In this document: positions 24,673 to 64,000 of the stretch, in pieces
How positions within the stretch are numbered: position 1 is the first letter of the stretch
Layout: every line of letters starts with the position of its first letter
Virus record (IMG/VR): IMGVR_UViG_3300047557_002467
Location: 1-64,000 of that record
Strand: one strand, 5' to 3'
DNA from: a virus
Length of the DNA: 64,000 nucleotides
Program-made: the position numbers and the translations under genes
The notes under the pieces: model-generated
What the model saw: the letters and a program-made list of their open reading frames with translations, nothing else
Databases searched by the model: none
Told to the model about the DNA's origin: nothing

Positions 24673-26862
24673 TTATTGACCAAAGGTTACACCAGTTGGC
24701 AAGATGTTGAAATCAAGTTGAATAAACTCTGCTGTTCTAGTTGGTTGTAAGTAGATAGCACCTACAAGTAAGTTTCTATCAATTACATCTGGAGTGTTGT
24801 TAGTGTCATCCATTACAACTCTGAACGCATACAAACCTTGTCTTTGTTGTACATACTCTAAGTATGGATTTACTTGTGACAAGAATCTGTTACGAGTAAC
24901 TGCAGTATTTTGTTCGAATACAAGAGTCTGTGCAATCTGACCAATGTACCCTTTCAATGCAATCAACAAACGTCTTACGTTTACACGATCAAGAGCAGAA
25001 GCTCTAGCTTGTAGAGTCTTTTGACCATAGATTACTGTACCTTGACCAGGGAAGATCGCGATTGGATTTACCTTAGCTGTATACAAAGTATTTCTTTGTG
25101 CAACTGTAAGTCTTCTTTCAGGTTGGATTACTGTTGGCAATCCACCACGGTTAAGACCTGCAGGTGCAAACCACTCTGCTGCTACCTTATCATTGTACTC
25201 ATAAACTGCAGGTACAATTGTTGATGCTGGTACAAAGTTCAATCTACCAGTCTCTGTTGACCTAAGTTGTACCCATGGCCAGTAAGTAGCACCATAAGAG
25301 TTGTCATATGTTTGTGATAATGTAGTAGCTGATGTTAGTGATTGGTTATATCCAACCATGTCTACTACTGCTATTGCGTCTCCACGGTTTTGAGTGTTAA
25401 GCAAGATTGCAGACACTTGTGAAGCAGCATTCTGACTTGTAATACCAGGAGCATAAATTGCATTGTAAACATATGCATCACTGTTTGCAAGTAGATTGAT
25501 AGCTGTGTCGTAATCTGATGCTACCAAACCTTGTATGTTATTTGCAGGTGTATTGGCAGCTAATGTTGGGATTTGTTCGTACAAGTTTAAATCAGCTGTA
25601 CCAAAGCATCCAAACAAAGGACCGACCGCACCTCCAAAAGCACCATTAAGCGACCCACTACCGTTTACAGGAATTGAAGCTGTATACTGTGGTTGAGCTT
25701 GTCCAGTTGGATTTAGATAGTTTGGAGTAGGGTAGTTAACTTGACTCACTCTAACATAATTAGAAGCATTAGGATAGCTACCAGTAATCTGTAAGTATTT
25801 TTGACCTGATTCGTCAGTTAATACTTGTTGAGTTTGGTTACCGATTACATACTCAATATAATTGTTTTGATTTGGATCTAGTGAAACATTAGACCAAGTT
25901 TCAAGTACAGTTTGATTAGTTGTATAATCATCACCTTGTCTAATTAACAAAGTAAAATATCCAGAAGCTGTGTCAGCTTGAGTAATCTGCCATCTAATGT
26001 TATTAGCTGAGCCTGAAGGTAGAACACCGTTTACTGCACTAGCAGCACCACCGTTATTGTTCATCAAATCTCCTACAGACAAAGTTTCAAGTACAAAAGC
26101 AGCTGAGGATATTGATGTACCAGCACCGGCTAATGTGGCTATTGGTATAGCTGAACCTGTAGGTTGACCGTATCCTAATCCTGTGTAAATTCTTATGCCA
26201 TTTGCAGAAGTACCTAGTGCTGCTGAACTTGTAAATTGTAATAAATTACTTGCTCCAGTAGTAATTGTAATTGGTAATTCATTGCTGTTTGAATTAACTA
26301 TTGATGCAAGTGATGCAGTCCATTGATTTAGAGTATACGAATTACCTGCGTTAGGGCTAAAGTATCCGTAATCTAATTGTGGATTGTAGATGGTGTAATC
26401 TGTACCCCATGCTATACCCATTAAATACCAATAGTTGTGATTGTTATCAACAATCGTAAACGCTGCATTTGATGCAGTATTTGCAAAAGTGAAAGCTGAT
26501 ATGTTTGCACTAGCGGTTGCTCTAGCACCAGCTACTCCTACTACACTATTACCTATTGATGCTGTAGCAGCAGTATAAGAACCACTAGTAACTCTTGTCA
26601 TCAAAAGAGATGTACCACCTTGCTGAAAATAGTTGTAAGCAGCTTGTGAAGTTAGGTATTCATAAGTGACATTACCTGATATAAAGGTAGTACCAAACTT
26701 AGCCTTGTATTCAGAATACGAAGTTACTACGGTTGGTACATTCTGTCTACCATATACAGAAGGGCCGATTAGGGCTGATCCTACTGTTATTGGTCCTGCT
26801 GTTATTTGAGATTGGTCGTTTTCTCTGAGGAAAACACCGGGTGAGATTAAAGCTTCTGCCAT
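24673..26862 (-). CDS. Contractile tail sheath protein (T4 gp18-like)
   Basis: SPGVFLRE.D, YGATYWPWV, WFAPAGLNRG, VIYGQKTL, LDRVNVRRLL, FEQN, IYLQPTRTAEFI. Confidence 0.95.
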   Translation of the reverse strand: MAEALISPGVFLRENDQSQITAGPITVGSALIGPSVYGRQNVPTVVTSYSEYKAKFGTTFISGNVTYEYLTSQAAYNYFQQGGTSLLMTRVTSGSYTAATASIGNSVVGVAGARATASANISAFTFANTASNAAFTIVDNNHNYWYLMGIAWGTDYTIYNPQLDYGYFSPNAGNSYTLNQWTASLASIVNSNSNELPITITTGASNLLQFTSSAALGTSANGIRIYTGLGYGQPTGSAIPIATLAGAGTSISSAAFVLETLSVGDLMNNNGGAASAVNGVLPSGSANNIRWQITQADTASGYFTLLIRQGDDYTTNQTVLETWSNVSLDPNQNNYIEYVIGNQTQQVLTDESGQKYLQITGSYPNASNYVRVSQVNYPTPNYLNPTGQAQPQYTASIPVNGSGSLNGAFGGAVGPLFGCFGTADLNLYEQIPTLAANTPANNIQGLVASDYDTAINLLANSDAYVYNAIYAPGITSQNAASQVSAILLNTQNRGDAIAVVDMVGYNQSLTSATTLSQTYDNSYGATYWPWVQLRSTETGRLNFVPASTIVPAVYEYNDKVAAEWFAPAGLNRGGLPTVIQPERRLTVAQRNTLYTAKVNPIAIFPGQGTVIYGQKTLQARASALDRVNVRRLLIALKGYIGQIAQTLVFEQNTAVTRNRFLSQVNPYLEYVQQRQGLYAFRVVMDDTNNTPDVIDRNLLVGAIYLQPTRTAEFIQLDFNILPTGVTFGQ

Positions 26863-26933
26863 CTTAAATGTTTATTTCTGCTAATAAATAGCTATAATTA
26901 GTGGCAAAACCAAATTTATTATTTGGGGTATTT

Positions 26934-27203
26934 TCACTGTGAATCTTCAGGCTTTTCTTCTAGTTTTTTTAAAGTTCCGTCTTCGAAGTTAATGGAAACA
27001 TCCCCATACTTTTGTCCAAGCTCTCTTAGATGTGCTTGTTGTTTTTGTATATTATCCTTAATTCCCTCTTTAACTCTTTCTAATTCTAGATCGAGAATAG
27101 TTCTTTGGTAGTGGAGATCACCAAGACTTGCTGCTAGCTGATTAGTGTTAAAACGAAACTTCTGTAACTCTTGTAATTCTTCTTGTGTCAATTTATCGCT
27201 CAT
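26934..27203 (-). CDS. Coiled-coil hypothetical protein (ends KYG..SIN..DG)
   Basis: ORF track; heptad-rich. Confidence 0.75.
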   Translation of the reverse strand: MSDKLTQEELQELQKFRFNTNQLAASLGDLHYQRTILDLELERVKEGIKDNIQKQQAHLRELGQKYGDVSINFEDGTLKKLEEKPEDSQ

Positions 27204-27211
27204 ATTGCTTT

Positions 27212-27502
27212 TTATTTTTTAGTTCTTGACTTTTTAACAGGCTCAGCGCTTAGCTTTACTTTAGATGCTGGTTTCTTAACCTTTAATTCTTTTTTAGCTT
27301 TTACAAGCTCCTCTTTTTGTTCTGGAGTTGCTGTTGGCTCTTCTGATTTAAACTCAATGTGAGTTTCTACTTGTGGATTGAAGGTAGGATCTGATGCTTG
27401 ATAAGCATCTTCTTCTTTTTTAACTTTTTTTCTTTTTTGTACATTTACAACCAGTGTTATAACTATAGCTGCAACGACGATTACGAAAATTAATGCGCCC
27501 AT
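27212..27502 (-). CDS. N-terminally membrane-anchored Lys-rich protein
   Basis: Hydrophobic residues 3-20 then a basic tail; TATTTAT upstream. Confidence 0.7.
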   Translation of the reverse strand: MGALIFVIVVAAIVITLVVNVQKRKKVKKEEDAYQASDPTFNPQVETHIEFKSEEPTATPEQKEELVKAKKELKVKKPASKVKLSAEPVKKSRTKK

Positions 27503-27759: not shown

Positions 27760-27989
27760 TTTACTATAACTACGTTTCCTTTCCAGACTATTTCATTTGC
27801 TTGACAACTAACATGATGTTTTTCAAGTTCCTGGTTTCTTATACTATCCCAAACTAGATCCTTTGTTGTATGGACAGGTATTTCAAATACCACATCTGAA
27901 CAAACATGCTCTTGTCCGTTGATTAATATTCTCCAGTAGTTACGATTGTCGGTACATTGAGTATTCCATCTTACCTTAACATCGATCAT
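27756..27989 (-). CDS. Hypothetical protein (77 aa) in the sulfation operon
   Basis: 4-nt overlaps with both neighbours. Confidence 0.7.
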   Translation of the reverse strand: MIDVKVRWNTQCTDNRNYWRILINGQEHVCSDVVFEIPVHTTKDLVWDSIRNQELEKHHVSCQANEIVWKGNVVIVK

Positions 27990-28384
27990 AACTTACCTTC
28001 TGCTTTCATTTGTTCACGAATCTTAGTAGCAGATATGTCATGAATCTCATCAGGTGGTACATGCTCGATTACATCATATCCAACACCTCTTCCAATATTT
28101 ACTGATTCAATGTCAGGAATGATCATTACCACGATTCTTCCTGCTTGGATTAGGTCTTTGAGTTCGTTGGCTACATTATCTAAAATCTGTACTGCTGTCC
28201 AAGGATTCTTTTCATCAGGTTCTACATCTCTTATACAAATAAGAACATTCTTTCCTTGATTTAATCTTTGATCAATTAACCAACGGTGACCAGCATGCCA
28301 CGGTTGCCACCTACCTATAAACATAGAATAGGTCTTGATACTTCTAGATGTCTGTGCTGTTGCTCTGGCTAGATAGGATTCCAT
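27986..28384 (-). CDS. HIGH-superfamily nucleotidyltransferase (cytidyltransferase-like; candidate minimal ATP sulfurylase)
   Basis: FIGRWQPWHAGH (HxGH) and ISATKIR motifs; overlaps the APS kinase gene. Confidence 0.75.
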   Translation of the reverse strand: MESYLARATAQTSRSIKTYSMFIGRWQPWHAGHRWLIDQRLNQGKNVLICIRDVEPDEKNPWTAVQILDNVANELKDLIQAGRIVVMIIPDIESVNIGRGVGYDVIEHVPPDEIHDISATKIREQMKAEGKL

Positions 28385-28796
28385 AAACGTGATTATTTAT
28401 TTTACCGACACATTCTTTTATTGATAATTTAGAAGTGTCTAAGTGTAATATACTTTCTTCTTTTGGTATTTCAAAATCTTTTACGTGAAAATTTTCTCTT
28501 CCTCTCTCACCTTCGTAGGTTAGATAAACCCATGCAACTTTCTTTGTAAGACTATTAAGATAGTCTCTTGCTTCTTTGTATGGATATACTAGAGACAATA
28601 TTACATCTTGACCAACACTATCCATATAGAAAGCAATATCACTTGCTCTATTTAAATTTTTTATTCTTCCTTCTCTACTGTAATCCTTATTTACAAATAA
28701 CTCTCTCAGCTTATCACCATCTATATTGTGTACTGGAAATTCGTTTGCTAGAGTTGACTTACCACAATGTGGTTGACCGAATAAAACTACTATCAT
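28344..28796 (-). CDS. cysC: Adenylyl-sulfate (APS) kinase
   Basis: P-loop GQPHCGKST, IDGDKLR, YSREGRIKNL, SLVYPY...R, FEIP. Confidence 0.8.
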   Translation of the reverse strand: MIVVLFGQPHCGKSTLANEFPVHNIDGDKLRELFVNKDYSREGRIKNLNRASDIAFYMDSVGQDVILSLVYPYKEARDYLNSLTKKVAWVYLTYEGERGRENFHVKDFEIPKEESILHLDTSKLSIKECVGKINNHVYGILSSQSNSTDI

Positions 28797-29755
28797 GATT
28801 TGTCTATCGCTTTATAGATGTCATTAATATCAAACATTTCACTTACGTCGTTGTAAGGACACTCGTGTACTACGCCGTCAAAAGAATAGTCAAACAAATA
28901 AGAGTCTACCATTTTAACATTTCCTTTTGGAGGTTTAGCTACAATATTGTTATGTAGGTCATATCCAAAGTTCTTAGGTGAAGTACCAACCCATAACACA
29001 GTTGATTTAAGTTTCATTGCTGCTGCTGCGTGTTGCAAACATGAATCAATTAACACTCTCTTCTCTGACAGGTTTAGAATAGAAAACAGTTCGTAGTTGG
29101 ACATTGGTTGGTTAATAAACTCCACACCTTGGATAGCATGTGCTGGATTTCTACCAATCTGTATAATGTGATATCTACTTTGATACCTATCAACAATGTT
29201 TTGTACTACACCATAAGGCATATCTCTTGTCCATGAGTAAACATTTTGTTGATCTAAAGGACCTCCGTTAGAGTGAATAACCATAACAGGTCTCTCTCTT
29301 CTCCAACTATGTTGAAATTCCTTTTGAATCATGTTAGGATAGAGAATAGGTTGTTGATTCTCATACTTAAGACCTAACAAATCACACCAGTTCTCAATCA
29401 CATGCTTTTTCTTCATGATGTGATCTGACTGAAAGTAAGGTTCATGCTTGAATACAATAGTGTCTTTGTCTTTAATAAAGTCATCATAAAAGTAAGAAGT
29501 CATACCTACCCTATATACCCTATGGATATCAGGGTGGTTCAAGAATACTTCTGGATAGGATACTACAAGAATTAACTTCCTGTCTGAATACTTCCTCTTT
29601 ACGTTGTTGATGATAGCAGTTGCTGCTACATTCTTTCCAAGACCACCCTCTATATGCCATACGACATACTTGGTGCTGTTGCTAGATTTGTCTTCCAAAA
29701 CTGTTAATTTTTCGTCTTTTAGTAAATCTGATTCTGTTTGAAACCCAACCTTCAT
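28793..29755 (-). CDS. Glycosyltransferase, GT9-like (GT-B fold)
   Basis: GGLGKNV, IIQIG, LIDSCLQHAAAA....STVLW. Confidence 0.78.
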   Translation of the reverse strand: MKVGFQTESDLLKDEKLTVLEDKSSNSTKYVVWHIEGGLGKNVAATAIINNVKRKYSDRKLILVVSYPEVFLNHPDIHRVYRVGMTSYFYDDFIKDKDTIVFKHEPYFQSDHIMKKKHVIENWCDLLGLKYENQQPILYPNMIQKEFQHSWRRERPVMVIHSNGGPLDQQNVYSWTRDMPYGVVQNIVDRYQSRYHIIQIGRNPAHAIQGVEFINQPMSNYELFSILNLSEKRVLIDSCLQHAAAAMKLKSTVLWVGTSPKNFGYDLHNNIVAKPPKGNVKMVDSYLFDYSFDGVVHECPYNDVSEMFDINDIYKAIDKS

Positions 29756-29760
29756 TTGTT

Positions 29761-30582
29761 TTATATTTGATAACCGAAATCATTAAAGAACCACCTGTAA
29801 TTATCTTCTATAATTTTGCAGGCATTTGGACCTAGCACGTCTAAGAAGTCGTTTTTTACTGGTTTTAGTTCTCCTCTAATTACATGGTCTCCAAATACAC
29901 CATACCACTTATCGTCTTCATGGGTTACTTGTGGTATGTTTATAAAGTCGTGTTTAAAATAAGGTAGTTCTAGGTATTCGTAGATCCTTTTCATTTGTGA
30001 TTCTGGGTCTAAACACAACTCTTCAAACTTCACAAATAGAATATTTTGATGTATACCCTGTACTAACACTTGATATAATCTATCCAATGCAGGACCAATA
30101 GGTGGGTTGTTAGACCAAACTATCATCCTCTTATCTGTAGTAGTACCTGTTAGGTTACCCCAGTTTGCAATGTGGTGGTCAGTAAGAGGGTTTTGTCGAT
30201 ATTTTTTCTCTAAAGATGCATAAATTGCTCTAATATCCCTAACCATGCAAATAATCTTTGGGTTTGGATCGTAGGCGTTTATGAAATCGTACTCTGAACT
30301 CCATCCTCTGCATTTATCTATAACGTAAGGCTTGTCGGTTAGAGGTTCATAGAATCCGTAGATAGCTCCTTTAAGTAGAGACTTCATACCTTTTTCCATT
30401 GTCTCTGAATCTTGAGCTTTAAACTCTAGTCCATCAGTATAAATGGTACGACATGCAGACAACACCTCATACAACCCCGAAGTTGGGGTAGTATGGATGT
30501 CTGGATTTTGTCCTAATATGTTTTGGATTAACGTTGAACCGGCACGCGGCAACGAACTGTTGTAGAAAATCTTCTTTGGCAT
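29761..30582 (-). CDS. PAPS-dependent sulfotransferase
   Basis: 5'-PSB SLPRAGSTL, IDK.R.W, 3'-PB VRDIRAIYAS, VKFEEL..DP...MKRIYEYL. Confidence 0.9.
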   Translation of the reverse strand: MPKKIFYNSSLPRAGSTLIQNILGQNPDIHTTPTSGLYEVLSACRTIYTDGLEFKAQDSETMEKGMKSLLKGAIYGFYEPLTDKPYVIDKCRGWSSEYDFINAYDPNPKIICMVRDIRAIYASLEKKYRQNPLTDHHIANWGNLTGTTTDKRMIVWSNNPPIGPALDRLYQVLVQGIHQNILFVKFEELCLDPESQMKRIYEYLELPYFKHDFINIPQVTHEDDKWYGVFGDHVIRGELKPVKNDFLDVLGPNACKIIEDNYRWFFNDFGYQI

Positions 30583-30602
30583 AACAAATTTTAAAACCTA
30601 AT

Positions 30603-30634
30603 TTAATATACTGAAAAGTTCTTATTAAAAGAAC
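30603..30634 (-). promoter_or_regulatory. Bacteroidota-type promoter variant GTTC-N20-TATATTAA driving the sulfotransferase operon
   Basis: N20 spacing with one mismatch in the -33 box. Confidence 0.5.
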
Positions 30635-30969
30635 ATTCCATTAACACTTCCTGATACTACAGCAACAACTTCAGTACCTTGAGCTTCTGCAATAGCCTCC
30701 AAAATAACTGAGTCATCTTGACCCCATGTAGTAATTGTATCACCAGAAAGAACTACGTTATCGGCGTATACTGATTTGAAGTCTACAACACTACCGCTTT
30801 CAAAAACACAGTTACCATACATTACTCTAAAGTTTACTTGGTTAGCACCAAGAACATATTGATTAGCAACAGCTGTAATGTAAGATCCAGTGATGAATTC
30901 TGGAGATGGATTAAAAAGTCCGTCTTGAGTTGCGATACTGATTACTGGGTTAATTTGTCCGAAAATCAT
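30625..30969 (-). CDS. Small putative virion protein (114 aa)
   Basis: Own TATTTAT motif (30994-31000); three TGS/SGS motifs; WG.DD..I pattern. Confidence 0.65.
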   Translation of the reverse strand: MIFGQINPVISIATQDGLFNPSPEFITGSYITAVANQYVLGANQVNFRVMYGNCVFESGSVVDFKSVYADNVVLSGDTITTWGQDDSVILEAIAEAQGTEVVAVVSGSVNGMFF

Positions 30970-31000
30970 AGTTTTTGTGTTTTTTCTTCTCTAATAAATA

Positions 31001-31618
31001 TCACAGTTTCTTAAATAGAATATCGAGTTGGAAGATAATTCCGTTGTATAATCCTGGAATTCTATGGTATTCTAGTATGTCTAGCATACAAAAGCCATAT
31101 TCTACCATTTTGTCTACAACTTCACCAATCAAAGGTGCTCCTTCATTGTATTCTACTAGAGATAGTTCTATTAGAACGTATGAAGTTCTTTTTAAAGTTT
31201 CTTCACCACCTTTCAATATATCTAGTTCTGAGCCTTGAACATCCACTTTGATTAGGTCTATAGGATCTCCAAAAAAGTAATTACGATTATCTAGAGTCTC
31301 AGTCTCTACTTCCACTGATTCGTACTTACCTTCACCATACCAATCAGTGTTTTCTTTATACAAGGACGCTCCTGTTCCTACTGGATTAATCTTTTCAACA
31401 TATAGATTTGCTTTTCCCTTCTTGTCAGACAGTGCTACAATATCGTAGGGTTTACCTAGCAGTCTTAGTGCCGGTCCGCAATTCTTATTTGCCTCAACCA
31501 TTATAACCCTACAAACTGGATTTCTGTAGTATAGCTGCTTTGTGAAGTTCCCAACGTGCGCTCCGATGTCGAGTGCTGTGTTTGGGACGATATACTTGAA
31601 AAGTTTATTCTGTTCCAT
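31001..31618 (-). CDS. FkbM-family methyltransferase
   Basis: LDIGAHVG, VEAN, LIKVDVQGSELDILKG, QLDILF. Confidence 0.9.
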   Translation of the reverse strand: MEQNKLFKYIVPNTALDIGAHVGNFTKQLYYRNPVCRVIMVEANKNCGPALRLLGKPYDIVALSDKKGKANLYVEKINPVGTGASLYKENTDWYGEGKYESVEVETETLDNRNYFFGDPIDLIKVDVQGSELDILKGGEETLKRTSYVLIELSLVEYNEGAPLIGEVVDKMVEYGFCMLDILEYHRIPGLYNGIIFQLDILFKKL

Positions 31619-33815: not shown

Positions 33816-33819
33816 AACT

Positions 33820-55900: not shown

Positions 55901-58900
55901 TAGCACCTAAATAAACTGCATTTGCTGCTGTATTAGGAGCTTCTACAAAAGATTCGATGTTTAAGTTTGCAATAGCATCTGCTTCAGTAGTGTATATGTT
56001 ATTACCGTAATAAACAATAATTGCTTTAGCTACACTATTAGGGAACCAGAATACCCTCTGTATCGACCAGTTACCGGCTCCTACATTAGTTAGAGTACCG
56101 TTATTAGAATAATTTTGAGGATCAATTGCTCCAAATCCAGCACCTGCATTTGTTAAATATACCCAGCTAGATCCTGATTGATAATATCTATATATTTTAG
56201 AGGTCTGGGTTCCGGGGTCGATAGCATAGGATGGATTGTTTGGATCTATAGTGTAGTTAGATCCTGGAGCATAAGCTGTACCGCTTCCTACCACTAAGCT
56301 ACCTGTAGAAGATCCACTAGGTGCTAATGTAAAACCGGATAGTTTTAACGGTCCGAATGCTCTATTAAATATATTTTGCGATTGCTCAAAACCGTATGCT
56401 ACTGAAGGCTGTGTTTTAACAGCATTTATTGTAGATCCGTTTTGAAACAGTACAACACCTACATTAATTACTGTATCGAATTGACCGTCGCTATACGGTG
56501 TACCTTGCTGAAAAATGTTACCGGTTGAATCAATTGATACAAAAGCTTGTTGATAGGAGGCAGTAAGAGGTGCAATACTAGCTGTTAAATTACCCCAGTT
56601 TAAATATTGGATTGTTGGGTACGGGTTATCGTTTAAGCTTGCGTTTAGATTAACAATAATACCACTACCGCTTGATACGTTGTATACAGTGGAAGATTGA
56701 GTAGTAATTAAACCTCCATTCAATAGACCCGTATAGAGGTTACCTTCTAACCAGCGTAGACGAGTTGTATTATTATAGCCTTTAGAATTTTGTGTAAAGT
56801 ATAAGTCTTGTGTAGAACCGCTTACGTAAATGTAAGATGCAGATATTGAGTTATTAATGTTCGTTGTTACAGGTTCAAATTGAATATAACCGTTAATAGT
56901 TTCACTACCTGATATATTTAATGCACCTGTTAGGAAAGTTGTACCTATTAGTGTATTAGAACCACTTGTAAATAAGCTACCTGTTACTGTTTGACTACCT
57001 ATGAATACGTTTGATCCAGTAGTAGCAAATACTCTAGATCCTGTACCGTCCAATAATCCTGCATTGAATGCAAAGGAAGCTGTTATTGAATTTGAGGAAC
57101 TTATTGCGTTTGAAGAACTAAAAGCATAAGAGCTTGATAAAGCATTAGATGCTGATATCGCATAAGATGCACTTAGTGCTGTTGGTGCGTGTGAAGCTGT
57201 TGTTGCATTTAAAGCCCAACTCGCAGTACCAAATAAACTACCTGTTAAGTTATTAGCTGTTACTCTACCGTTGAAAGTAGAAGCTCCGTTTACAGTTAAA
57301 CTGCCTGTTACACTTACTGAACCTGTAAACTGTTGTGTATTTGTTAGCTGATTGCCAAAAATGTTAGAACCAGAAGAGTAGACTATACTAGACGTTACAG
57401 TTTGTACAACTAAAGTCTGTGCTGTAAGTGTATTAGATATTAAAGCATTACTTGCTGTAAGGTTACCTCTTACAAAAAAGTCATCAGCACTTGATGCTGT
57501 TAATGCATGAGATGCAGTTAATGCATAAGATGCACTTATAGTATTAAGAGAGAAGCTTGATGTCTGAGAATAAGAAGCACTGAATGCATAAGAAGAACTT
57601 ACTGCATTACTGCTACTAACTGCAAAAGAAGATGATAGAGCATAAGAGCTACTTACAGAAACTGATGCACTCTGAGCATTGCTAGCTGATATAGCGTAAG
57701 AAGCGCTTATACTATTACTTCCACTTAAAGCATATGAAGAACTAACACTAACACTACTACTTAAAGCATAGGAAGAACTAACACTAACACTACTACTTAA
57801 AGCATACGAAGAACTAACGCTATTACTACTGCTTACAGCGTAAGAAGCTGATACTGCAAAAGAAGAGGTTAATGCTGAAGGTGCGTGCGATGCTGAGACT
57901 GCCCAAGATGAAGTACCAAATAGAGAGCCTGTTATACCACTGTTTACATTAAGAGACCCTGTTATACGTTGTGATCCGCTAATGTTGAAAGATCCTGATA
58001 AAATAAGGCCATCTGTATAGATCTGCCTTCCGTGTGTTATATTATCGTTCTGAGTTATGAAAGAATTCATAACACCAGACGAAACAATTAAAGCACTAGA
58101 GTTTGTTCCATTAAATGATACTCCTAACAATAGTCCATTACCATATGCGAACCCACTCCAGTCATTTAGTGCAGGTGTGATAGCTTCTTCCCACGTTATA
58201 CCATCAACAGAATAAATGAATCGGTTTTGTGATGTTGAGAAACATCCCGCTGCAATAAACACACCGCCCGCAAATATACATTTCCAAATTAATCCTGTCA
58301 ATGGAGTATCTCTTACGGTCCAATTTATTCCGTCAGGAGATGTCATTACTTTTCCTTGGTTACACGTAACAACAAATAATCCTTTACCGTAAGTGATATT
58401 ATAGGTTGTTAATGTACCTGCTGATGGTCTAGTAACATTGTTCCAACTTATACCGTCAGACGAAATTGCTATTGATCCAGAAACCGTTGATTCTGCTACT
58501 GCAACATACCTATCATTTGCGTAAGTAACACTTGTCCAAGGTAAATCCATTGTTGCAGGTGTTGATACACCTTGCCAGTTTACTCCATTGTAACTTATGT
58601 CAATTCTATTTAAAGAATTATCAATTTTAGTTACTACAAATTTATCTTTTCCGTAGGTTATACCATACCCTTGTCCACCCAAGCCAACTCCATTAAACCA
58701 ATTAATTCCATCATAGGAATAAAAGGATCTTTGATTTAGGTGTCCAACGGCAACAAATATGCCGTTTTGATAAGTTACATTTATAAGACTCGTTAGAGAT
58801 GGTAAAGTTCTAAAAGTCCAATTTACTCCATCAGGGGATGTTGCTATTGAACCTGTAGTTGAAACTGCAGCTCCAGATCTTTGTGCTGCAGCAACAAATA

Positions 58901-60950
58901 ATCCATTTCCATAGGTTATTGCCCTCCAAGGAAGGCTTGGAAAATTGCTACCTGATACTGCTCTCCAGTAAGTTCCTTCGTTAAATTGATTACCTTGTAA
59001 AGTTGAATCACCAATAACATCTATAGGTCCATTAACGACCAAACTTCCAGTGATAGATGTTGAACCAGTAAATTGTTGAGTATTGGAAAGACTGTTTCCA
59101 AAAATATTAGAACCTGATGAATATATTACAGACGAGGTCACAGTCTGTACTACTAAAGTCTGTGCTGTTATTGTGCCAGATATTAGTGCATTACTTGCTG
59201 TAACGTTACCTCTTACAAAAAAATTGTCAGCTGAGGATGCTGTTGCTGCAGTTGATGAACTTACTGCAGTTGATGCGGATATTGCAACTGAAGAGCTCAT
59301 TGCCCAGCTTGCAGTACCAAATAACGATCCAGTTATTCCTCGATTAACTTTTAAACTACCACTAATTTCTAGTGAACCTGTAATGCTGTGTTCATTGTTA
59401 GGATTAAGCTGTAGTTTATTGTTAGCTGTTACGTCAGAACCACCTACAAAGAAACCTAAATGCTTGTTTGGAGAAGCATTACCAATGTGAAACTCCGAAC
59501 CTGTATTGAAAACATACGCATCATTAGGTCCACCAAGAAAACCACTATAGTTTTCACTGTTGATACCCATGTTAACATAGTTACCACTCTCATTACCATT
59601 ATTAGCAGTAGCTACTACATCAGAAGAAGCATTAGTACCTTGATTGGTATTTTGAATATTAAGCTGTAAGTAATTATCCAAATTACCTTTACCGCTTATA
59701 ACATTGTAAGAAGTTGTACTTGGCTGCCAAACATACAAAGCTTCAGGTGCATCACTTGTATTTCCTGTCTGGTTTATAATAACACTAAACGATCCTGACT
59801 GAAATATACTACTTGTTGCAAGTGTGTTGGTAGTATTAAATAAAGGAATGTACGTAGGTGTGCCTGCAATGTTGGCTATTGAACCACTAAAGTTTCCTGT
59901 AAATGAACCTGTGAATGATCCTGATAAGCTACCAGTTCCTAAATAAGATCCTGTTAAGGTTGCTGCACCTGTAAATGAACCTGTTAAATTTCCTACTCCT
60001 GTGAATGAACCAGTAAATGAAGCTGTAGTGTAAGAAGAACTAAATGTTAAGAATGATCCTGATAGTAGACTAATACTTGCACTTAGTGATGCACTAGTCT
60101 GTAGAAAGCTTCCTGATAATAAAGCAATACTACTACTGAAAGAAGCACTATCAATTAAATAAGATCCAGTGAATGAATTAAAAGAAGAGGTAAGTGTATA
60201 AGCAGGTGCTAAACTAGCTGTGTCTGCTATCGATGAACTTATACTGCGACTTGATGTACCAAATAATGAGCCTGTTAAATTAGTTATGTTAACTGGTCCG
60301 TAAAAGCTACTTGATCCGTATACACTAAGTGAACCGGTTATAGAAGTTGATCCAGTAAGTTGTTGTGTGTTTGATAGTTGATTACCAAAAATATTTGATC
60401 CTGAACTGTATACTACTGAAGAGCTTATAGTTACTACTTGTAATGTTTGTGCTGTTATTGTACCACTAAAAAGTGCGTTACTTGCTGTAATGTTACCTCT
60501 TACTAAAAAGTCATCTGCAGATGATGCTGTAAGAGCGTAAGAAGAAGTTATTGCGTATGAAGCTGTTAAAGAGGTTGGTGCGTGGCTAGCTGAGACAGCG
60601 TAAGAAGAGCTAAGTGCATAGCTACTGCTTACTGCATTAGAAGAACTAACAGAAAAGGAGCTTGTAAGAGAATATGATGCACTAGTTGCTGTGTTAGCAT
60701 TACCAGCATTATTAGCAAATAAAGAAGTTGAGGCACTACCTGCTGTAGCGGCATAATCGGCATAAGAAGCAGTCGAAATGCTACCACTTGTAGATGCGAT
60801 TTCTACAATTGATTGACTTACACCAGTATCTCTTTTAAAGTATATTTTACCGTCGTAGGTATTGACAGCTAATTCACCTAAATCAACTTGATCAATAGTA
60901 GGCGCTTTACCGGGTACGGCACTGCGTTTCAGTTCTATCTTAACTGCCAT
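52989..60950 (-). CDS. Giant modular S/T-rich tail fibre (2653 aa) with Mtd-like N-terminus and Asp-box beta-propeller
   Basis: KRSAVPGKAP...GELAVNTYDGKIYFK N-terminus; SASYA and GSLFGTASWA repeats; S.DG..W Asp-box repeats at ~58080-58970. Confidence 0.85.
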   Translation of the reverse strand: MAVKIELKRSAVPGKAPTIDQVDLGELAVNTYDGKIYFKRDTGVSQSIVEIASTSGSISTASYADYAATAGSASTSLFANNAGNANTATSASYSLTSSFSVSSSNAVSSSYALSSSYAVSASHAPTSLTASYAITSSYALTASSADDFLVRGNITASNALFSGTITAQTLQVVTISSSVVYSSGSNIFGNQLSNTQQLTGSTSITGSLSVYGSSSFYGPVNITNLTGSLFGTSSRSISSSIADTASLAPAYTLTSSFNSFTGSYLIDSASFSSSIALLSGSFLQTSASLSASISLLSGSFLTFSSSYTTASFTGSFTGVGNLTGSFTGAATLTGSYLGTGSLSGSFTGSFTGNFSGSIANIAGTPTYIPLFNTTNTLATSSIFQSGSFSVIINQTGNTSDAPEALYVWQPSTTSYNVISGKGNLDNYLQLNIQNTNQGTNASSDVVATANNGNESGNYVNMGINSENYSGFLGGPNDAYVFNTGSEFHIGNASPNKHLGFFVGGSDVTANNKLQLNPNNEHSITGSLEISGSLKVNRGITGSLFGTASWAMSSSVAISASTAVSSSTAATASSADNFFVRGNVTASNALISGTITAQTLVVQTVTSSVIYSSGSNIFGNSLSNTQQFTGSTSITGSLVVNGPIDVIGDSTLQGNQFNEGTYWRAVSGSNFPSLPWRAITYGNGLFVAAAQRSGAAVSTTGSIATSPDGVNWTFRTLPSLTSLINVTYQNGIFVAVGHLNQRSFYSYDGINWFNGVGLGGQGYGITYGKDKFVVTKIDNSLNRIDISYNGVNWQGVSTPATMDLPWTSVTYANDRYVAVAESTVSGSIAISSDGISWNNVTRPSAGTLTTYNITYGKGLFVVTCNQGKVMTSPDGINWTVRDTPLTGLIWKCIFAGGVFIAAGCFSTSQNRFIYSVDGITWEEAITPALNDWSGFAYGNGLLLGVSFNGTNSSALIVSSGVMNSFITQNDNITHGRQIYTDGLILSGSFNISGSQRITGSLNVNSGITGSLFGTSSWAVSASHAPSALTSSFAVSASYAVSSSNSVSSSYALSSSVSVSSSYALSSSVSVSSSYALSGSNSISASYAISASNAQSASVSVSSSYALSSSFAVSSSNAVSSSYAFSASYSQTSSFSLNTISASYALTASHALTASSADDFFVRGNLTASNALISNTLTAQTLVVQTVTSSIVYSSGSNIFGNQLTNTQQFTGSVSVTGSLTVNGASTFNGRVTANNLTGSLFGTASWALNATTASHAPTALSASYAISASNALSSSYAFSSSNAISSSNSITASFAFNAGLLDGTGSRVFATTGSNVFIGSQTVTGSLFTSGSNTLIGTTFLTGALNISGSETINGYIQFEPVTTNINNSISASYIYVSGSTQDLYFTQNSKGYNNTTRLRWLEGNLYTGLLNGGLITTQSSTVYNVSSGSGIIVNLNASLNDNPYPTIQYLNWGNLTASIAPLTASYQQAFVSIDSTGNIFQQGTPYSDGQFDTVINVGVVLFQNGSTINAVKTQPSVAYGFEQSQNIFNRAFGPLKLSGFTLAPSGSSTGSLVVGSGTAYAPGSNYTIDPNNPSYAIDPGTQTSKIYRYYQSGSSWVYLTNAGAGFGAIDPQNYSNNGTLTNVGAGNWSIQRVFWFPNSVAKAIIVYYGNNIYTTEADAIANLNIESFVEAPNTAANAVYLGAIVINGTGVFTSANDFTILPGGLFRQVGGSGGGGSVITQTLAGLSDVSISGPTNLQPFAYSTTAGKWINTSIISASLVGNASTATSASFSISASYALSSSNAQTSSHALFAISSSFAATASSADDFLVRSNLTASNALINNTLTVQTIVAQTITSSTDFVTGSTRFGSLLSNTHQFTGSVSITGSLSLNNVPIPTGTGASGQVTYWTGANTQTGSNNLFWDATNSRLGLNVVAPTATVQISGSSNSNLLLAGSPISSSIFSISGSGQVNVGVPFIFNATPRSFNVYGESLFQTANGAPNSVYIGSNTSTTVGAGLLVTPTQLISNQNNGTFTIIGDNINIGSRIILNARNLDTGSLILGANNINTVKIYGTGRVGIQTGGTFVDSGENLQVSGSAKITNNLTVTGSFIVVTGSLREFEVRQTGVDIGSVITDFHTVTGSLNISGSLRATSITSSLLGTASYAVQALSSSFAVSASQAVSSSFTVSSSQAVSSSYALSSSNSITSSFAISSSQATTASFVLNAVSASFALTASSVNPLFQNVELYGRLTNLSASVILQSSASAQANALEIRTPGGSTVIQLRNNGTAQFNDLVQTPYLTGLSDGPVVTNSTGWMFGPSFAIAASAKVHISGSTNNSVLFRIDSPSFNNILRVSGSGFIGVNQELPIFNLDVSGSGRYTQGLQVTGSLNAPIITGSLFGTASWAQNAQTASFVLNAISASFAATASSADNFLVRQNLTSSNAVVTGTLTAQTLVVQTVTSSIVYSSGSNIFGNDLANRQILTGSVSITGSLTVNGPSTFNGPVTANNLTGSLFGTASYATQALSASFATTASFAASGSISVSSSYALSSSYAINASSGSNFVITNTYRFNGSLNDSATVISSIAGTNNLFTQPTGSFTAGFYKYTVTNGTNARTGEVMAVWNGGNVEFTDFSTVDLGSTLVVTASVVIASAEAQFNIITNTSGWNIKALATYL
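57723..57818. repeat. 36-bp tandem repeat (~2.7 copies) inside the fibre gene
   Basis: ACTTAAAGCATAnGAAGAACTAACACTAACACTACT starting at 57723, 57759 and 57795; encodes SSSVSVSSSYAL. Confidence 0.9.
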
Positions 60951-61020: not shown

Positions 61021-61809
61021 TTAATAGAACCCTCCATCTATTCCAGTGCCAATCATAGAACCAGAAATGGATTGAGGGAACTCTTCGTTTGGAATAAATG
61101 GTAATATGAGACTTGAAGAAAGATTTGTAGATCCTGTAACTTGCAAACTTCCAGATAGTATAATAAGATTTGGATTAATACCGTTAAGAGCGTTAATTAT
61201 ACGAAGTAAGTGCTCAGCCTCTATTATAGCTCCAGGTCTTATACCTGTTGTTGGTATTGTTCCGTTGACAGGTGTTGGTACTTGATAGAGGATAGGAACG
61301 CCTGCTACATTAGAACCTGAAGTAAATGTTACGCTGGTGCCTGGAATGCTGTAACCTGTTAGATTGTTTAGATAGTTTATAATATCGTTTACAGAACCAC
61401 TACTTAATGCTGATGAAGCACTAATTATATACCCACTGGCTGTTGGTAAATTGTAGCCGGTTAGCTGGTTAATTGTAGATATTATGCTGTTTATAGATCC
61501 ACTTCCTGTTGCCATAGACGATGTTGCTAAAGATCCACTTGTTTGAGGTAATGTATAACCTGATACTTGGTTAATATAATTAATTAAGTTATTTACTGAT
61601 CCTGTTCCTGCTGTGAAAGATGAAGTAGTTTCAGGTGTATCTTCAGTAGGTATTAGAAATCCCGACAATGAGTTCACTAAACCTATGATACTATTCACAG
61701 AACCACTTGCATTAGATACAGAAGCTGTTACAACAGACCCGCTAGGTATTGGTATCCTAAAGTCTGTTATAGAGTTAATTTGCGATATAATGTCAGATAG
61801 TGCACTCAC
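61021..61809 (-). CDS. Putative virion protein with 34-aa tandem repeats
   Basis: GS[VI]N.[IL]I..[VIL]N.[LV][ST]G[FY].[IL]P repeated with an exact 34-aa period; ends IDGGFY. Confidence 0.75.
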   Translation of the reverse strand: MSALSDIISQINSITDFRIPIPSGSVVTASVSNASGSVNSIIGLVNSLSGFLIPTEDTPETTSSFTAGTGSVNNLINYINQVSGYTLPQTSGSLATSSMATGSGSINSIISTINQLTGYNLPTASGYIISASSALSSGSVNDIINYLNNLTGYSIPGTSVTFTSGSNVAGVPILYQVPTPVNGTIPTTGIRPGAIIEAEHLLRIINALNGINPNLIILSGSLQVTGSTNLSSSLILPFIPNEEFPQSISGSMIGTGIDGGFY

Positions 61810-62666: not shown

Positions 62667-62667
62667 A

Positions 62668-63159
62668 TTATAGTCTTTCTTTTGCTATACCCAATCTCTC
62701 TGGAGAAGTTAGGTGAGTGAAACAAATTATTGAGAAGCTCTGACCAAAGTTCTGTAAACCGTTTGAATAAGCATAAGAGTTGTCCTTACCTAAGAAGAAT
62801 TGATTTTCGTTGACATTATCTACTTCATAGTAAAGCTCGTTGTACATAATAATATCACCTGTTTCTGGCACTACGTTGGCTATTGTTAGGTCATCTCTTA
62901 AGAATCTAAACTCTGTATCTCTTCTTGTGTCAGGACCAAAGTTATCACTTACTGTAGTGAAGTCACCTCTAACTATCAAACAGTTAAGCAAGACAGGACC
63001 AATGTAACTTTTTACTAAGGCTTCACCGTATATGTTGGCTGGTGAATCGTTCAGTACTATCTGATAATATCCTACCTGCTGAGTTACTACGTTACCTACA
63101 AACTCAGAAGCTACACCTACTTGCATTAATGCATCTCTAGTTGATCCGAATAGTGCCAT
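62668..63159 (-). CDS. Neck / head-closure protein (gp14-like)
   Basis: NIYGEA, PETGDII.Y....YEVDNV; lies between the gp13-like and gp15-like genes. Confidence 0.65.
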   Translation of the reverse strand: MALFGSTRDALMQVGVASEFVGNVVTQQVGYYQIVLNDSPANIYGEALVKSYIGPVLLNCLIVRGDFTTVSDNFGPDTRRDTEFRFLRDDLTIANVVPETGDIIMYNELYYEVDNVNENQFFLGKDNSYAYSNGLQNFGQSFSIICFTHLTSPERLGIAKERL

Positions 63160-63160
63160 T

Positions 63161-64000
63161 TTACCCTATGTATACTTGTAAAGGAATATTATTAAGAGTA
63201 TTTTGTAACGAATCATTCTCAGATTGCTTTCTTTGTAACTGAGCTTGCCTTGACATATCCTCTAAGTCTTGTCTCAGCTTCTCTCTTAATGTTGTCTGCA
63301 TTGCTTGACCTCTTGAAATTAAGTCGGTATAGTTAAGTGTTACCTCACTACCAGGTACTGCTACCTGTTGATACTTACCTCTAATAAGTCCTAATATTTC
63401 TGATGTCAGAGCAGCTGTATATTCCTTGATCCATTGCTTGCCAGGTTGATTAATATCTCCATATGTGATAAGACCGTAGGGTGCTAAAGAAGGATTTGCA
63501 ACAAGTCCTTGATTAGCTCCATAAGGACTATTCTCTGTAAGACTCATTAGGTCTGATTGGAAGCAATACTGAATAGACACATATCTACCACCAACCATTG
63601 GAACAGGCATTATTCTTAACATTGTTCCTATAATTTCAAAGCTCCAGTTAGGCAATCTAACTGTGTTTGACATCTCAAGTTGTTGTATTCTTTGTATATC
63701 CCAATAAACTGGATAGAGAGTTGCACTATTAGAACCTCCACCTACACCAACACCTGCACCCATTCCATATCCACCCCAATCACCTGGCCATGCACCTGCA
63801 CCACCTAACTGAGGGTAGTATGCACCATAACCGTATCCATAGATAGCAGGAGGTGCTTGATACATTACTCTTTGTACTATTAATCTATCAGTAGCAGACA
63901 TACCTTGTGTACTTCTTGCCCAATCATACAAATCGTAACTTTGTACACTTGCAGTGAGCATCAATGAACCTGATTTCCACGACACAAATCCACCTACACC
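63161..64000 (-). CDS. Neck protein (gp13-like), 5'-truncated by window edge
   Basis: Frame open to 64000; LRIMPVP, QWIKEYTAAL..EILGLIRGKY..V.VPG..VTLN. Confidence 0.78.
   Translation of the reverse strand, partial: GVGGFVSWKSGSLMLTASVQSYDLYDWARSTQGMSATDRLIVQRVMYQAPPAIYGYGYGAYYPQLGGAGAWPGDWGGYGMGAGVGVGGGSNSATLYPVYWDIQRIQQLEMSNTVRLPNWSFEIIGTMLRIMPVPMVGGRYVSIQYCFQSDLMSLTENSPYGANQGLVANPSLAPYGLITYGDINQPGKQWIKEYTAALTSEILGLIRGKYQQVAVPGSEVTLNYTDLISRGQAMQTTLREKLRQDLEDMSRQAQLQRKQSENDSLQNTLNNIPLQVYIG

What the first reader, a model, noticed from the sequence alone, without database searches (positions are those of the whole stretch)
24673..64000. Candidate sequon-directed virion glycosylation code: [S/T]-[G/A]-S saturates outer virion proteins and is absent from inner ones
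Seen: SGS/TGS/SAS/TAS recurs in unrelated folds. By hand count there are 11 copies in the N-terminal ~410 residues of the sheath and none in its conserved C-terminal core, 3 in the 114-aa ORF at 30625, 5 in LamG 33856, 6 in LamG/delta-60 41462, more than a dozen in the 262-aa protein, and 2 in the neck fragment. The motif is dense throughout the 2653-aa fibre and is spliced into the NTAVG solenoids as QSGS/VSGS. I find none in the tail tube (161 aa) or tape measure (733 aa), and it is rare in replication enzymes. Established: some mycobacteriophages glycosylate their virions using glycosyltransferases encoded among structural genes, and animal proteoglycans attach sulfated glycans at Ser-Gly. 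Inference: convergence on one tripeptide only in exposed proteins suggests an acceptor sequon read by the adjacent GT/sulfotransferase island, giving a proteoglycan-like virion coat for shielding, adhesion or stability.
Basis: partly seen in the sequence, partly recalled or inferred. Interest (0 to 1): 0.9.

Follow-up and report, generated by a model that had tools for sequence, protein, structure and literature searches.

The report
Ser/Thr-Gly/Ala-Ser tag on phage surface
The outward-facing head, sheath, neck and fibre proteins of this uncultured freshwater T4-like phage carry the ordered tripeptide Ser/Thr-Gly/Ala-Ser about four times too often, which looks like a tag read by some enzyme, most plausibly a phage sugar-transferase, but no chemistry shows a sugar and the neighbouring sulfotransferase genes are not what shaped it.

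Summary
Observation confirmed and extended. Every hand count was reproduced exactly. The excess of [ST][GA]S survives whole-protein, local-window and dipeptide controls. It also survives a composition-free anagram control: TGS 38 against SGT 3 in the fibre. It is protein-level, since Ser codons are a mix of AGY and TCN. It ranks first of 272,158 motif classes in five non-repeat outer proteins. There all 8 copies sit in the surface insertion domain. T4 and an unrelated Flavobacterium phage show no excess. "Absent from inner proteins" is only baseline, not avoidance.

Interpretation partly supported. A shared reader, most plausibly O-glycosylation by soluble phage glycosyltransferases, is my leading explanation (about 0.42). 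The adjacent PAPS/sulfotransferase island is accessory: four complete relatives and phage immuto lack any sulfotransferase yet keep the motif. No glycosyltransferase of a known protein-modifying family was identified. A conserved GT4 pair also occurs in RM378, whose sheath and capsid lack the motif. Many copies sit in structural repeats and turns, so a purely structural reading stays close behind (about 0.32).

This scan has flagged the same motif before in related aquatic phages.

The parts
24673..26862 (-). Tail sheath, 729 aa. It holds 11 motif copies at residues 93-404 (outer domains) and none in the C-terminal core.
   Evidence: Pfam Phage_sheath_1 and Phage_sheath_1C match residues 454-719. 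The fold matches full-length T4 gp18. Seven alignment columns carry the motif in at least 40% of 75 orthologs.
27986..28384 (-). HIGH-type nucleotidyltransferase, 132 aa, overlapping the APS kinase gene. It may supply APS.
   Evidence: Pfam CTP_transf_like. NCBIfam gives weak hits to NMN adenylyltransferases.
28344..28796 (-). APS kinase, 150 aa.
   Evidence: Pfam APS_kinase, E = 2e-8.
28793..29755 (-). Conserved soluble 320-aa protein of the island. A GT9-like identity is a lead only.
   Evidence: Pfam, NCBIfam and PDB gave no hit, either for the single sequence or for a 9-sequence profile. The Atlas look-alike cluster has PF01075 in 26% of members. The gene travels with the sulfotransferase in relatives.
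29761..30582 (-). Sulfotransferase, 273 aa.
   Evidence: Pfam Sulfotransfer_3, E = 5e-18. The best NCBIfam hit is the Nod-factor sulfotransferase NoeE.
30625..30969 (-). Small soluble 114-aa protein inside the island, with 3 motif copies at conserved positions.
   Evidence: 3 copies against 0.25 expected. Homologues in L006-L008, L018 and L032 keep 3-4 copies, except that L032 has lost two of the conserved sites. No family hit.
31001..31618 (-). FkbM-type methyltransferase, 205 aa.
   Evidence: Pfam Methyltransf_21, E = 4e-25.
31501..32271 (-). 256-aa protein of unknown function in the island.
   Evidence: Only a sub-threshold Methyltransf_23 hit.
32261..33166 (-). GT4-type (GT-B) glycosyltransferase, 301 aa, soluble.
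   Evidence: Pfam Glyco_trans_1_4, E = 1e-10. No transmembrane segment.
33159..33815 (-). GT2-like (GT-A) protein, 218 aa. The assignment is weak.
   Evidence: Pfam Glycos_transf_2 scores 22.3 bits, just under the 23.3-bit cut-off.
33856..35091 (-). 411-aa virion-type protein with 5 motif copies (not significant) and a 23-residue poly-Thr linker encoded at 34084-34152. It lies directly upstream of the GT genes.
35096..40387 (-). 1763-aa NTAVG-type solenoid tail fibre. It has 24 copies, mostly at fixed repeat positions.
   Evidence: Pfam Peptidase_S74 chaperone at the C-terminus. 24 copies against 8.6 expected.
40739..41458 (-). 239-aa Laminin_G_3 protein with 1 copy (baseline).
41462..43285 (-). 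607-aa DUF5122 (delta-60) propeller protein with 6 copies, several at recurring repeat positions.
   Evidence: Pfam DUF5122, E = 2e-27. Weak excess, p about 0.02.
43287..43979 (-). 230-aa Laminin_G_3 protein with 2 copies (baseline).
43984..52743 (-). 2919-aa NTAVG-type solenoid tail fibre with 36 copies.
   Evidence: Pfam Peptidase_S74 at the C-terminus. 36 copies against 14 expected.
52989..60950 (-). 2653-aa Ser-rich fibre with 123 copies. They sit in [ST][SAG]S-x-[AS]-x hexads and in xTGSLxV-type rungs.
   Evidence: TGS 38 against SGT 3; TAS 28 against SAT 1.
61021..61809 (-). 262-aa neck-region protein with 14 copies, mostly within four ~33-aa repeats.
63161..64000 (-). Neck or head-completion protein. 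The full gene ends at 64351, outside the window. It has 3 copies in 396 aa.
   Evidence: PHROG head-tail adaptor hit. 3 copies against 0.69 expected.

Best explanation
[ST]-[G/A(/S)]-S, usually followed by a hydrophobic residue, is a short surface tag on loops and strand ends of the exterior domains of the virion. These domains are the capsid insertion domain, the outer sheath domains, the neck, the whisker-like protein and the fibres.

The tag is kept by selection because a common reader recognises it. The most likely reader is a soluble phage-encoded glycosyltransferase that O-glycosylates the last Ser in the cytoplasm during late gene expression. That would coat the particle with a phage-made glycan.

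In this phage the PAPS/sulfotransferase/methyltransferase island between fibres and sheath would at most trim that glycan.

Shown: the motif statistics, their location, their conservation and the enzyme repertoire. Inferred: that there is a reader, that it is a glycosyltransferase, and that Ser3 is the acceptor.

A few sites are probably structural turns regardless. These are sheath residues 93 and 402 and alignment column 66 (window residue 62, where this phage has SGN). The Gly at 402-404 is invariant, and all three columns persist in every lineage.
For: 1. The excess is real, ordered and protein-level. It survives whole-protein, 20-80-aa local and dipeptide controls and anagram controls. 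Ser codons at motif sites mix AGY and TCN.
2. It is not cherry-picked. It ranks 1 of 272,158 motif classes in five non-repeat outer proteins (z = 10). It ranks 1 of 11,271 again in the capsid protein outside the window (8 vs 1.4). The top class in T4 outer proteins reaches only z = 6.7, and T4 has 3 copies against 8.4 expected.
3. It is convergent. The sheath N-terminus, capsid insertion domain, 114-aa, 262-aa and fibre proteins share no significant sequence similarity.
4. It lies in exterior domains only. 323 of 336 copies in 64 capsid orthologs fall in the insertion domain. All sheath copies fall in residues 93-404.
5. It behaves as an equivalence class. At single alignment columns SGS, TGS, SAS, TAS and TSS replace one another, while the last Ser is rarely Thr.
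6. There is turnover. Copies occur at 76 sheath and 44 capsid columns, and a modest excess persists outside the conserved columns.
7. One sublineage lacks the excess together in the sheath and in the neighbouring fibre-like proteins (L065, L081, L078, L059, L061). Its sheath keeps only the three most conserved columns (shown for four of the five).
8. Every complete relative carries GT-rich sugar islands, whereas T4 and Flavobacterium phage 11b have neither GT1/GT2 genes nor the motif.
9. In this phage the GTs lie in the late structural block, are all soluble, and the island itself contains no membrane-embedded enzyme.
10. Poly-Thr linkers sit directly upstream of GT genes twice.
Against: - There is no chemical evidence of any modification.
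- No GT here or in relatives matches a family known to glycosylate proteins. NCBIfam gives only generic GT4 and GT2 hits. The HPAT-like and GT9-like readings are Atlas leads without HMM or PDB support.
- The HPAT-like gene is absent from four complete relatives.
- The sulfotransferase island does not co-vary with the motif.
- The conserved GT4 pair is also present in RM378 and LR756508. RM378 sheath (1 vs 1.05) and capsid (1 vs 0.5), and the LR756508 capsid (1 vs 0.7), have no excess.
- The co-occurrence of GT islands and motif is confounded by common descent.
- Many copies are fixed positions of structural repeats. In the AF2 models most sites sit at hairpin turns and strand ends, which is also where small-residue turn motifs are expected.
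- Cytoplasmic proteins do not avoid the motif.
- A glycan on every hexad of a packed trimeric fibre may be sterically implausible (inference).
Confidence: 0.42

Rival explanations
1. Purely structural dialect. [ST]-small-Ser followed by a hydrophobic residue is a turn or strand-cap element (ST-turn-like). This phage lineage uses it to build beta-rich surface domains and fibre repeats. No enzyme reads it. The excess reflects inheritance of conserved turns, amplification by internal repeats, and the small-residue taste of fast-evolving exposed domains.
For: - In the AF2 models most of the 19 sheath and capsid sites lie at or near a strand or helix boundary or in hairpin turns.
- Gly is invariant at sheath residues 284 and 403.
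- The three most conserved sheath sites persist even in the low-motif lineage.
- Much of the count comes from repeats: fibre hexads, solenoid rungs, propeller blades and the four repeats of the 262-aa protein.
- The [ST][GA] and [GA]S dipeptides are each enriched 1.3-2-fold in most of these proteins, so part of the signal is lower-order.
- No protein-glycosylating GT family was found.
- RM378 has the GT pair without the motif.
Against: - Homologous folds in T4 (gp18, gp23 and the fibres) do without it, at or below expectation.
- The central residue swaps freely among Gly, Ala and Ser at one column. That argues against a Gly-specific backbone need, while the last Ser stays strict.
- The same ordered tripeptide is rank 1 in unrelated proteins with no detectable similarity.
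- The excess persists outside conserved columns.
- In one sublineage the excess is absent together from the sheath and from the neighbouring fibre-like proteins.
Confidence: 0.32
2. A reader other than a glycosyltransferase. The tag could be recognised by a different modifying enzyme (for example phosphorylation, phospho-form addition or acylation on Ser). It could also be recognised by a non-covalent partner such as a decoration protein, an assembly chaperone or an environmental ligand.
For: All the evidence for a shared reader applies equally: convergence, equivalence class, strict Ser3, exterior location and loss across several proteins in one lineage. No GT could be tied to the motif.
Against: No kinase, phospho-form transferase or decoration-protein candidate was seen in the 95-kb contig, of which about 43% of the genome is missing. 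The clade's conspicuous accessory repertoire is sugar-nucleotide synthesis plus GTs.
Confidence: 0.1
3. The adjacent GT/sulfotransferase island reads the sequon and builds a sulfated, proteoglycan-like coat.
For: The island is real, soluble and co-oriented with the late structural genes. It contains an APS kinase, a sulfotransferase whose best hit is a carbohydrate sulfotransferase (NoeE), GTs and a methyltransferase. A conserved 114-aa protein with 3-4 motif copies travels with it.
Against: Sheath enrichment is the same with or without the island within 10 kb. No sulfotransferase is present in four complete relatives or in immuto, which keep the motif. The motif anatomy differs from the metazoan Ser-Gly attachment site.
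Confidence: 0.08

Closest known systems
Mycobacteriophage virion glycosylation by phage-encoded glycosyltransferases (Freeman et al. 2023, Cell Host Microbe; known here only through citing papers, and my own recall)
   Same: Tailed phages carry GT genes beside or inside the structural genes and decorate capsid and tail subunits in the cytoplasm.
   Different: In mycobacteriophages the glycans sit on C-terminal extensions of the capsid and tail-tube subunits and were shown by mass spectrometry. Here the tube has no copy, and the capsid sites lie in the insertion domain. The candidate acceptor is a dispersed internal tripeptide across many proteins, and nothing has been measured.
GtfA/GtfB O-GlcNAc glycosylation of serine-rich repeat adhesins in Gram-positive bacteria (own knowledge)
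   Same: Cytosolic GT-B enzymes, encoded as an adjacent pair, modify Ser in S-[A/V/T]-S-type repeats. The 2653-aa fibre has long SAS/SSS/TAS hexads, and relatives carry an adjacent GT4 pair of about 483 and 437 aa.
   Different: The phage pair gives only generic GT4 hits in NCBIfam, with no GtfA or GtfB model. Its best solved relative is the chlorovirus glycosyltransferase B736L at E = 4e-4. The pair is not in the 95 kb held for this phage. RM378 has the pair without the motif.
Bacterial autotransporter heptosyltransferases (TibC, Aah) acting on beta-helix adhesins (own knowledge)
   Same: A cytosolic enzyme glycosylates Ser in a strand-loop-strand element of a folded beta-solenoid. Here many sites are rungs of solenoid fibres and hairpin turns.
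   Different: A GT9-like identity for the 320-aa island protein rests only on an Atlas look-alike cluster in which 26% of members carry PF01075. Pfam, NCBIfam and PDB profile searches were negative. That gene is patchy among relatives.
Chlorovirus PBCV-1 capsid glycosylation by virus-encoded enzymes at non-canonical sequons (own knowledge)
   Same: A virus-encoded cytoplasmic machinery decorates the outer face of the major capsid protein at virus-specific short motifs.
   Different: That system is N-linked to Asn in a eukaryotic virus. Here the candidate is O-linked Ser in a tailed phage and is unproven.
Metazoan proteoglycan Ser-Gly attachment sites, and the Bacteroidota general O-glycosylation motif D-[ST]-[AILVMT] (own knowledge)
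   Same: Both are short Ser-centred sequons. The Bacteroidota motif also needs a hydrophobic residue after the acceptor, as seen here (58% against a 30% background).
   Different: The proteoglycan site is Ser followed by Gly with acidic flanks. Here Ser follows Gly/Ala. The Bacteroidota motif needs Asp before the acceptor and operates outside the cytoplasm, and an unrelated Flavobacterium phage shows no excess.

Membership tests
Phage virion glycosylation, mycobacteriophage type | Phage-encoded glycosyltransferases located among structural genes | tested here: met
   A GT4-type and a GT2-like gene lie between the fibre genes and the sheath, on the same strand.
Phage virion glycosylation, mycobacteriophage type | Acceptor sites on C-terminal extensions of capsid and tail-tube subunits | tested here: not met
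   The tube has 0 copies. The capsid copies lie at residues 170-309, and there is no Ser/Thr-rich C-terminal tail.
Phage virion glycosylation, mycobacteriophage type | Glycans demonstrated on virion proteins | not testable with these tools
   This needs mass spectrometry or glycoprotein staining of particles.
GtfA/GtfB serine-rich-repeat glycosylation | Enzymes belong to the GtfA and GtfB families | tested here: not met
   An NCBIfam scan of the relatives' 483-aa and 437-aa pair returns only weak generic GT4 models. PDB search finds no GtfA or GtfB.
GtfA/GtfB serine-rich-repeat glycosylation | Acceptor made of Ser-x dipeptide or short Ser-rich repeats | tested here: inconclusive
   The fibre has SAS/SSS/TAS hexads, but the capsid and sheath sites are isolated tripeptides.
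Autotransporter heptosyltransferase (BAHT) system | GT9-related heptosyltransferase | tested here: inconclusive
   There is an Atlas lead for the 320-aa protein, with no Pfam, NCBIfam or PDB support.
Proteoglycan-type Ser-Gly attachment with sulfated glycan | Ser followed by Gly with acidic neighbours | tested here: not met
   The conserved Ser follows Gly/Ala and is followed by L, V, I, F or Y in 130 of 225 sites. No acidic residue appears among the most frequent flanking residues tabulated.
Proteoglycan-type Ser-Gly attachment with sulfated glycan | Sulfotransferase and PAPS supply coupled to the sequon | tested here: not met
   The enzymes are present here. They are absent from four complete relatives and immuto, which keep the motif.
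Bacteroidota general O-glycosylation | D-[ST]-[AILVMT] sequon | tested here: not met
   The residue before the conserved Ser is Gly or Ala, not Asp. Flavobacterium phage 11b shows no excess of the tripeptide.
Generic sequon-directed protein modification | Ordered short motif enriched on accessible surfaces, beyond composition, in unrelated proteins | tested here: met
   Accessibility is inferred from domain identity and secondary structure only.
Generic sequon-directed protein modification | Motif density co-varies with presence of the modifying enzyme | tested here: inconclusive
   No complete genome has the motif without GT islands (0 of 6). T4 and 11b have neither. RM378 has the GT pair without the motif, and the low-motif sublineage is known only from partial contigs.

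The most novel reading that the evidence does not exclude
A large clade of aquatic T4-like phages writes a true O-glycosylation sequon, [ST]-[GAS]-S-hydrophobic, into every outward-facing virion domain: capsid insertion domain, sheath, neck, whiskers and fibres. Soluble phage glycosyltransferases read it and cover the particle with a phage-made glycan. Sublineages then sulfate or methylate that glycan. Site number is tuned lineage by lineage, much like a glycan shield.
Probability: 0.38. Interest if true: 0.85.

Novelty: new variant of a known kind. Interest (0 to 1): 0.68.

Why it matters
Virion glycosylation in phages has been shown only for mycobacteriophages, and no phage protein-glycosylation sequon is known. 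If this tripeptide is such a sequon, sugar-coated particles would be widespread among abundant freshwater and marine T4-like phages. That would bear on adsorption, stability, grazing and immune or defence recognition. It would also explain why these phages carry large sugar-synthesis islands. The claim is directly testable, because cultured relatives exist (the immuto phages, Mel-JY01) and the candidate sites are defined to the residue. If it is instead a structural dialect, it is still an unusually clean case of convergent short-motif usage restricted to exposed domains.

Tried and rejected
- Composition artefact: rejected by whole-protein, local 20/40/80-aa and anagram controls. The dipeptide (Markov) expectation explains roughly half to three-quarters of the counts, depending on the protein.
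- DNA-level motif: rejected, because codons mix AGY and TCN Ser and all Gly and Ala codons.
- Cherry-picked motif: rejected (rank 1; T4 calibration).
- General property of phage fibres and sheaths: rejected with T4.
- Host-phylum effect: rejected with Flavobacterium siphophage 11b.
- One shared domain copied between proteins: rejected by all-against-all BLAST.
- HPAT-like 326-aa protein at the contig end as a clade-wide reader: rejected. It is absent from four complete relatives and immuto, and has no Pfam support.
- GtfA/GtfB identity of the conserved GT4 pair: not met.
- GT9/BAHT identity of the 320-aa protein: unconfirmed.
- Solvent-exposure mapping: not possible, because only secondary structure and pLDDT are returned. 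The sheath model is moderate (pLDDT 73). The capsid model is poor overall (53), though the insertion domain reaches 66-85.
- Fibre N-terminal query against phage records: found only the 50-aa anchor.
- Correlation of sheath excess with excess in neighbouring proteins: weak (Spearman 0.36, p = 0.006), not corrected for phylogeny, and diluted by inner proteins.
- GT content of the low-motif sublineage: could not be tested, since only partial contigs exist.
- Freeman et al. could not be read.
- Searches were input slips.

Full report
**Setting.** The window is bases 1-64000 of a 95,096-base IMG/VR phage contig, estimated 57% complete. All genes lie on the minus strand. The phage is T4-like, with gp23-type capsid, gp18-type sheath and gp19-type tube. 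Its nearest named relative is Flavobacterium phage vB_FspM_immuto, at 46% sheath identity.

**Check of the observation.** Every hand count of [ST][GA]S was reproduced exactly. Whole-protein shuffles give the following, observed against expected:
- sheath 11 vs 2.1
- 262-aa protein 14 vs 1.8
- 2653-aa fibre 123 vs 26
- 2919-aa fibre 36 vs 14
- 1763-aa fibre 24 vs 8.6
- 114-aa ORF 3 vs 0.25

Shuffling within 20-, 40- or 80-residue blocks changes little. The 607-aa protein is weak (6 vs 2.1). The 411-aa protein is not significant (5 vs 2.6). The zeros in the tube and tape measure are what composition predicts (0.13 and 1.6). Dipeptide frequencies explain roughly half to three-quarters of the counts, depending on the protein.

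A composition-free control compares the motif with its anagrams:
- Fibre: TGS 38 against SGT 3, TSG 3, STG 3, GTS 2 and GST 8; TAS 28 against SAT 1.
- Five non-repeat proteins: SGS 20 against SSG 5 and GSS 1.
- Non-outer proteins show no asymmetry.

Over the whole contig the outer set has 236 copies, against 62 expected from composition and 100 if order were neutral. All other ORFs have 12 against 13-16. So inner proteins are at baseline and are not depleted. Codons at the sites mix AGY and TCN serine codons and all Gly and Ala codons, so selection acts on the protein.

**Is the motif cherry-picked?** Among 272,158 classes of the form [ab][cd]e, [ST][AG]S ranks first in the five non-repeat outer proteins (39 vs 9, z = 10).

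The decisive check is out of sample. The major capsid protein lies outside the window at contig 65119-66816 (Pfam Gp23, E = 6e-77). It has 8 copies against 1.4 expected, all within residues 170-309. The motif is again rank 1, of 11,271 classes. In T4 outer proteins the best class reaches only z = 6.7, and [ST][AG]S is below expectation (3 vs 8.4). An unrelated Flavobacterium siphophage, 11b, shows no excess either. The signal therefore belongs to this phage lineage. It is not a general property of tail fibres and not a property of the host phylum.

**Anatomy.** Many copies are not independent. In the 2653-aa fibre they sit in hexads of the form [ST][SAG]S-x-[AS]-x and in xTGSLxV-type rungs. 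In the two NTAVG solenoid fibres they occupy fixed repeat positions. In the 262-aa protein they lie in four ~33-aa repeats. In the DUF5122 propeller several lie at recurring repeat positions.

The sheath, capsid insertion domain, 114-aa protein, 262-aa protein and fibres share no significant sequence similarity. The convergence is therefore real at the level of protein families. The residue after the motif is L, I, V, F, Y, M or W in 130 of 225 sites, against a background of 30%.

**Conservation.**
- Sheath: 75 distinct orthologs at 43-85% identity nearly all keep 6-15 copies against about 2 expected. Seven columns carry the motif in at least 40% of sequences. The motif appears at 76 different columns overall.
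- Capsid: 64 orthologs average 5.3 against 1.5 expected, and 323 of 336 copies lie in the insertion domain.
- At single columns SGS, TGS, SAS, TAS and TSS replace one another, while the last Ser is rarely Thr. The degenerate class thus behaves as one unit with a small central residue. This argues against a strictly Gly-dependent backbone turn at the variable sites.
- At the most conserved sites Gly is invariant (residues 284 and 403).

**Structure.** The AF2 sheath model (pLDDT 73) matches full-length T4 gp18. The 11 sites lie in the region equivalent to the outer domains. They sit mostly at hairpin turns (93, 298), strand starts (100, 116), strand ends (360) or loops before strands (283).

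The capsid model is poor overall (pLDDT 53), but the insertion domain is its best part (66-85). There the sites again sit at strand ends and turns. Coordinates are not returned, so solvent exposure could not be computed. Exterior location rests on the established positions of the gp23 insertion domain and the gp18 outer domains.

**The enzymes.** The island at 27986-33815 is real. It encodes a GT2-like protein (just under cut-off), a GT4-type GT, an FkbM methyltransferase, a sulfotransferase (best hit the Nod-factor enzyme NoeE), an APS kinase and a HIGH nucleotidyltransferase. It also encodes two unknowns and the 114-aa motif-bearing protein. All are predicted soluble, and no membrane-embedded enzyme lies within the island.

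The island is accessory. Its sulfotransferase/APS-kinase core is found upstream of the sheath in about 13 of 80 relatives, while sheath enrichment does not differ. No Sulfotransfer_3 gene exists in four CheckV-complete relatives or in immuto. All of these keep enriched sheath, capsid and fibres.

All complete relatives do carry sugar-nucleotide and GT islands. These include an adjacent GT4 pair of about 483 and 437 aa. The 483-aa member also has homologues in Mel-JY01, LR756508 and Rhodothermus phage RM378, and RM378 shows the adjacent pair.

That pair is generic GT4, not GtfA/GtfB. RM378 has it without any excess in the sheath (1 vs 1.05) or capsid (1 vs 0.5). LR756508 likewise shows no capsid excess. 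Mel-JY01 is intermediate (sheath 7 vs 1.9, neck protein 4 vs 0.5).

An HPAT-like reading of the 326-aa protein at the contig end is an Atlas lead only, and that gene is not a core gene. A Fringe-like GT31 protein sits next to it.

**A natural contrast.** One narrow sublineage has only 3-4 sheath copies (L065, L081, L078, L059, L061). In the four aligned members with 3 copies these fall exactly at the three most conserved columns. Its neighbouring long fibre-like proteins are at or below expectation (1309 aa, 3 vs 6.4; 1067 aa, 1 vs 4.0). Absence of the excess from several proteins in one lineage points to a shared cause. Only partial contigs of this lineage are available, so its GT set could not be examined.

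**Other hints.** A 23-residue poly-Thr linker lies in the 411-aa protein directly upstream of the GT genes. A second poly-Thr tract lies directly upstream of the 326-aa and Fringe-like genes at the contig end. Such linkers are often O-glycosylated in other systems (own knowledge). This is suggestive only.

**Verdict.** A few sites are probably structural turns. The lineage-variable cloud of ordered, interchangeable, exterior-only sites is best explained by a shared reader. The clade's conspicuous soluble GT repertoire makes O-glycosylation the leading candidate (about 0.42). A purely structural dialect follows closely (about 0.32). The specific link to the adjacent sulfotransferase island and the proteoglycan analogy are not supported.

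Literature searches found no description of this motif. This scan has flagged the same motif repeatedly in related aquatic phages. Those notes are unchecked and were not used as evidence.

Noticed in passing
window 34084-34152 (-), and contig 94.8-95.1 kb (outside the window): A 23-residue poly-Thr linker lies in the 411-aa protein immediately upstream of the GT genes. A second poly-Thr tract (TTTTT-LPP) lies in the truncated ORF immediately upstream of the 326-aa and Fringe-like GT31 genes at the contig end.
   Followed up: partly
L065/L193, L081, L078, L059, L061 (related loci): A narrow sublineage of relatives has lost the motif excess in the sheath and in the adjacent long fibre-like proteins at the same time, keeping only the most conserved sheath sites.
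   Followed up: partly
G001 28956-31722; immuto 49172-51927; RM378 9165-11893: An adjacent pair of GT4-type genes (about 483 and 437 aa) is conserved from Rhodothermus phage RM378 to the Flavobacterium-type phages. Its best solved relative is the chlorovirus glycosyltransferase B736L (E = 4e-4).
   Followed up: partly
window 27986-28796 (-): A 132-aa HIGH-motif nucleotidyltransferase overlaps the APS kinase gene, and no canonical ATP sulfurylase is present in the contig. It may be a minimal APS-forming enzyme. Its NCBIfam hits are to NMN adenylyltransferases.
   Followed up: no
window 30625-30969 (-): The 114-aa protein with 3-4 conserved motif copies travels with the sulfotransferase island in relatives (L006-L008, L018, L032). 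It could be a small decoration protein or an acceptor. No family was found.
   Followed up: partly
related loci L019-L030 and others: Sheath length polymorphism: about a third of orthologs (~590 aa) lack roughly 140 residues, corresponding to alignment columns 116-400, which is the outermost insertion.
   Followed up: no
window 12967-17379 (-): The 1470-aa protein carries a C-terminal amidase or endolysin-like domain, so it is probably a tail-associated lysin. It has only 1 motif copy here, whereas a similar-sized 1476-aa protein in relative G001 (homology not tested) has 13.
   Followed up: no
window ~58000-58900 (-), residues ~690-960 of the 2653-aa fibre: By eye there are repeated S-x-D-G-x-x-W elements (Asp-box-like), suggesting a sialidase-type propeller embedded in the fibre. 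Pfam gave no hit for the whole protein.
   Followed up: no
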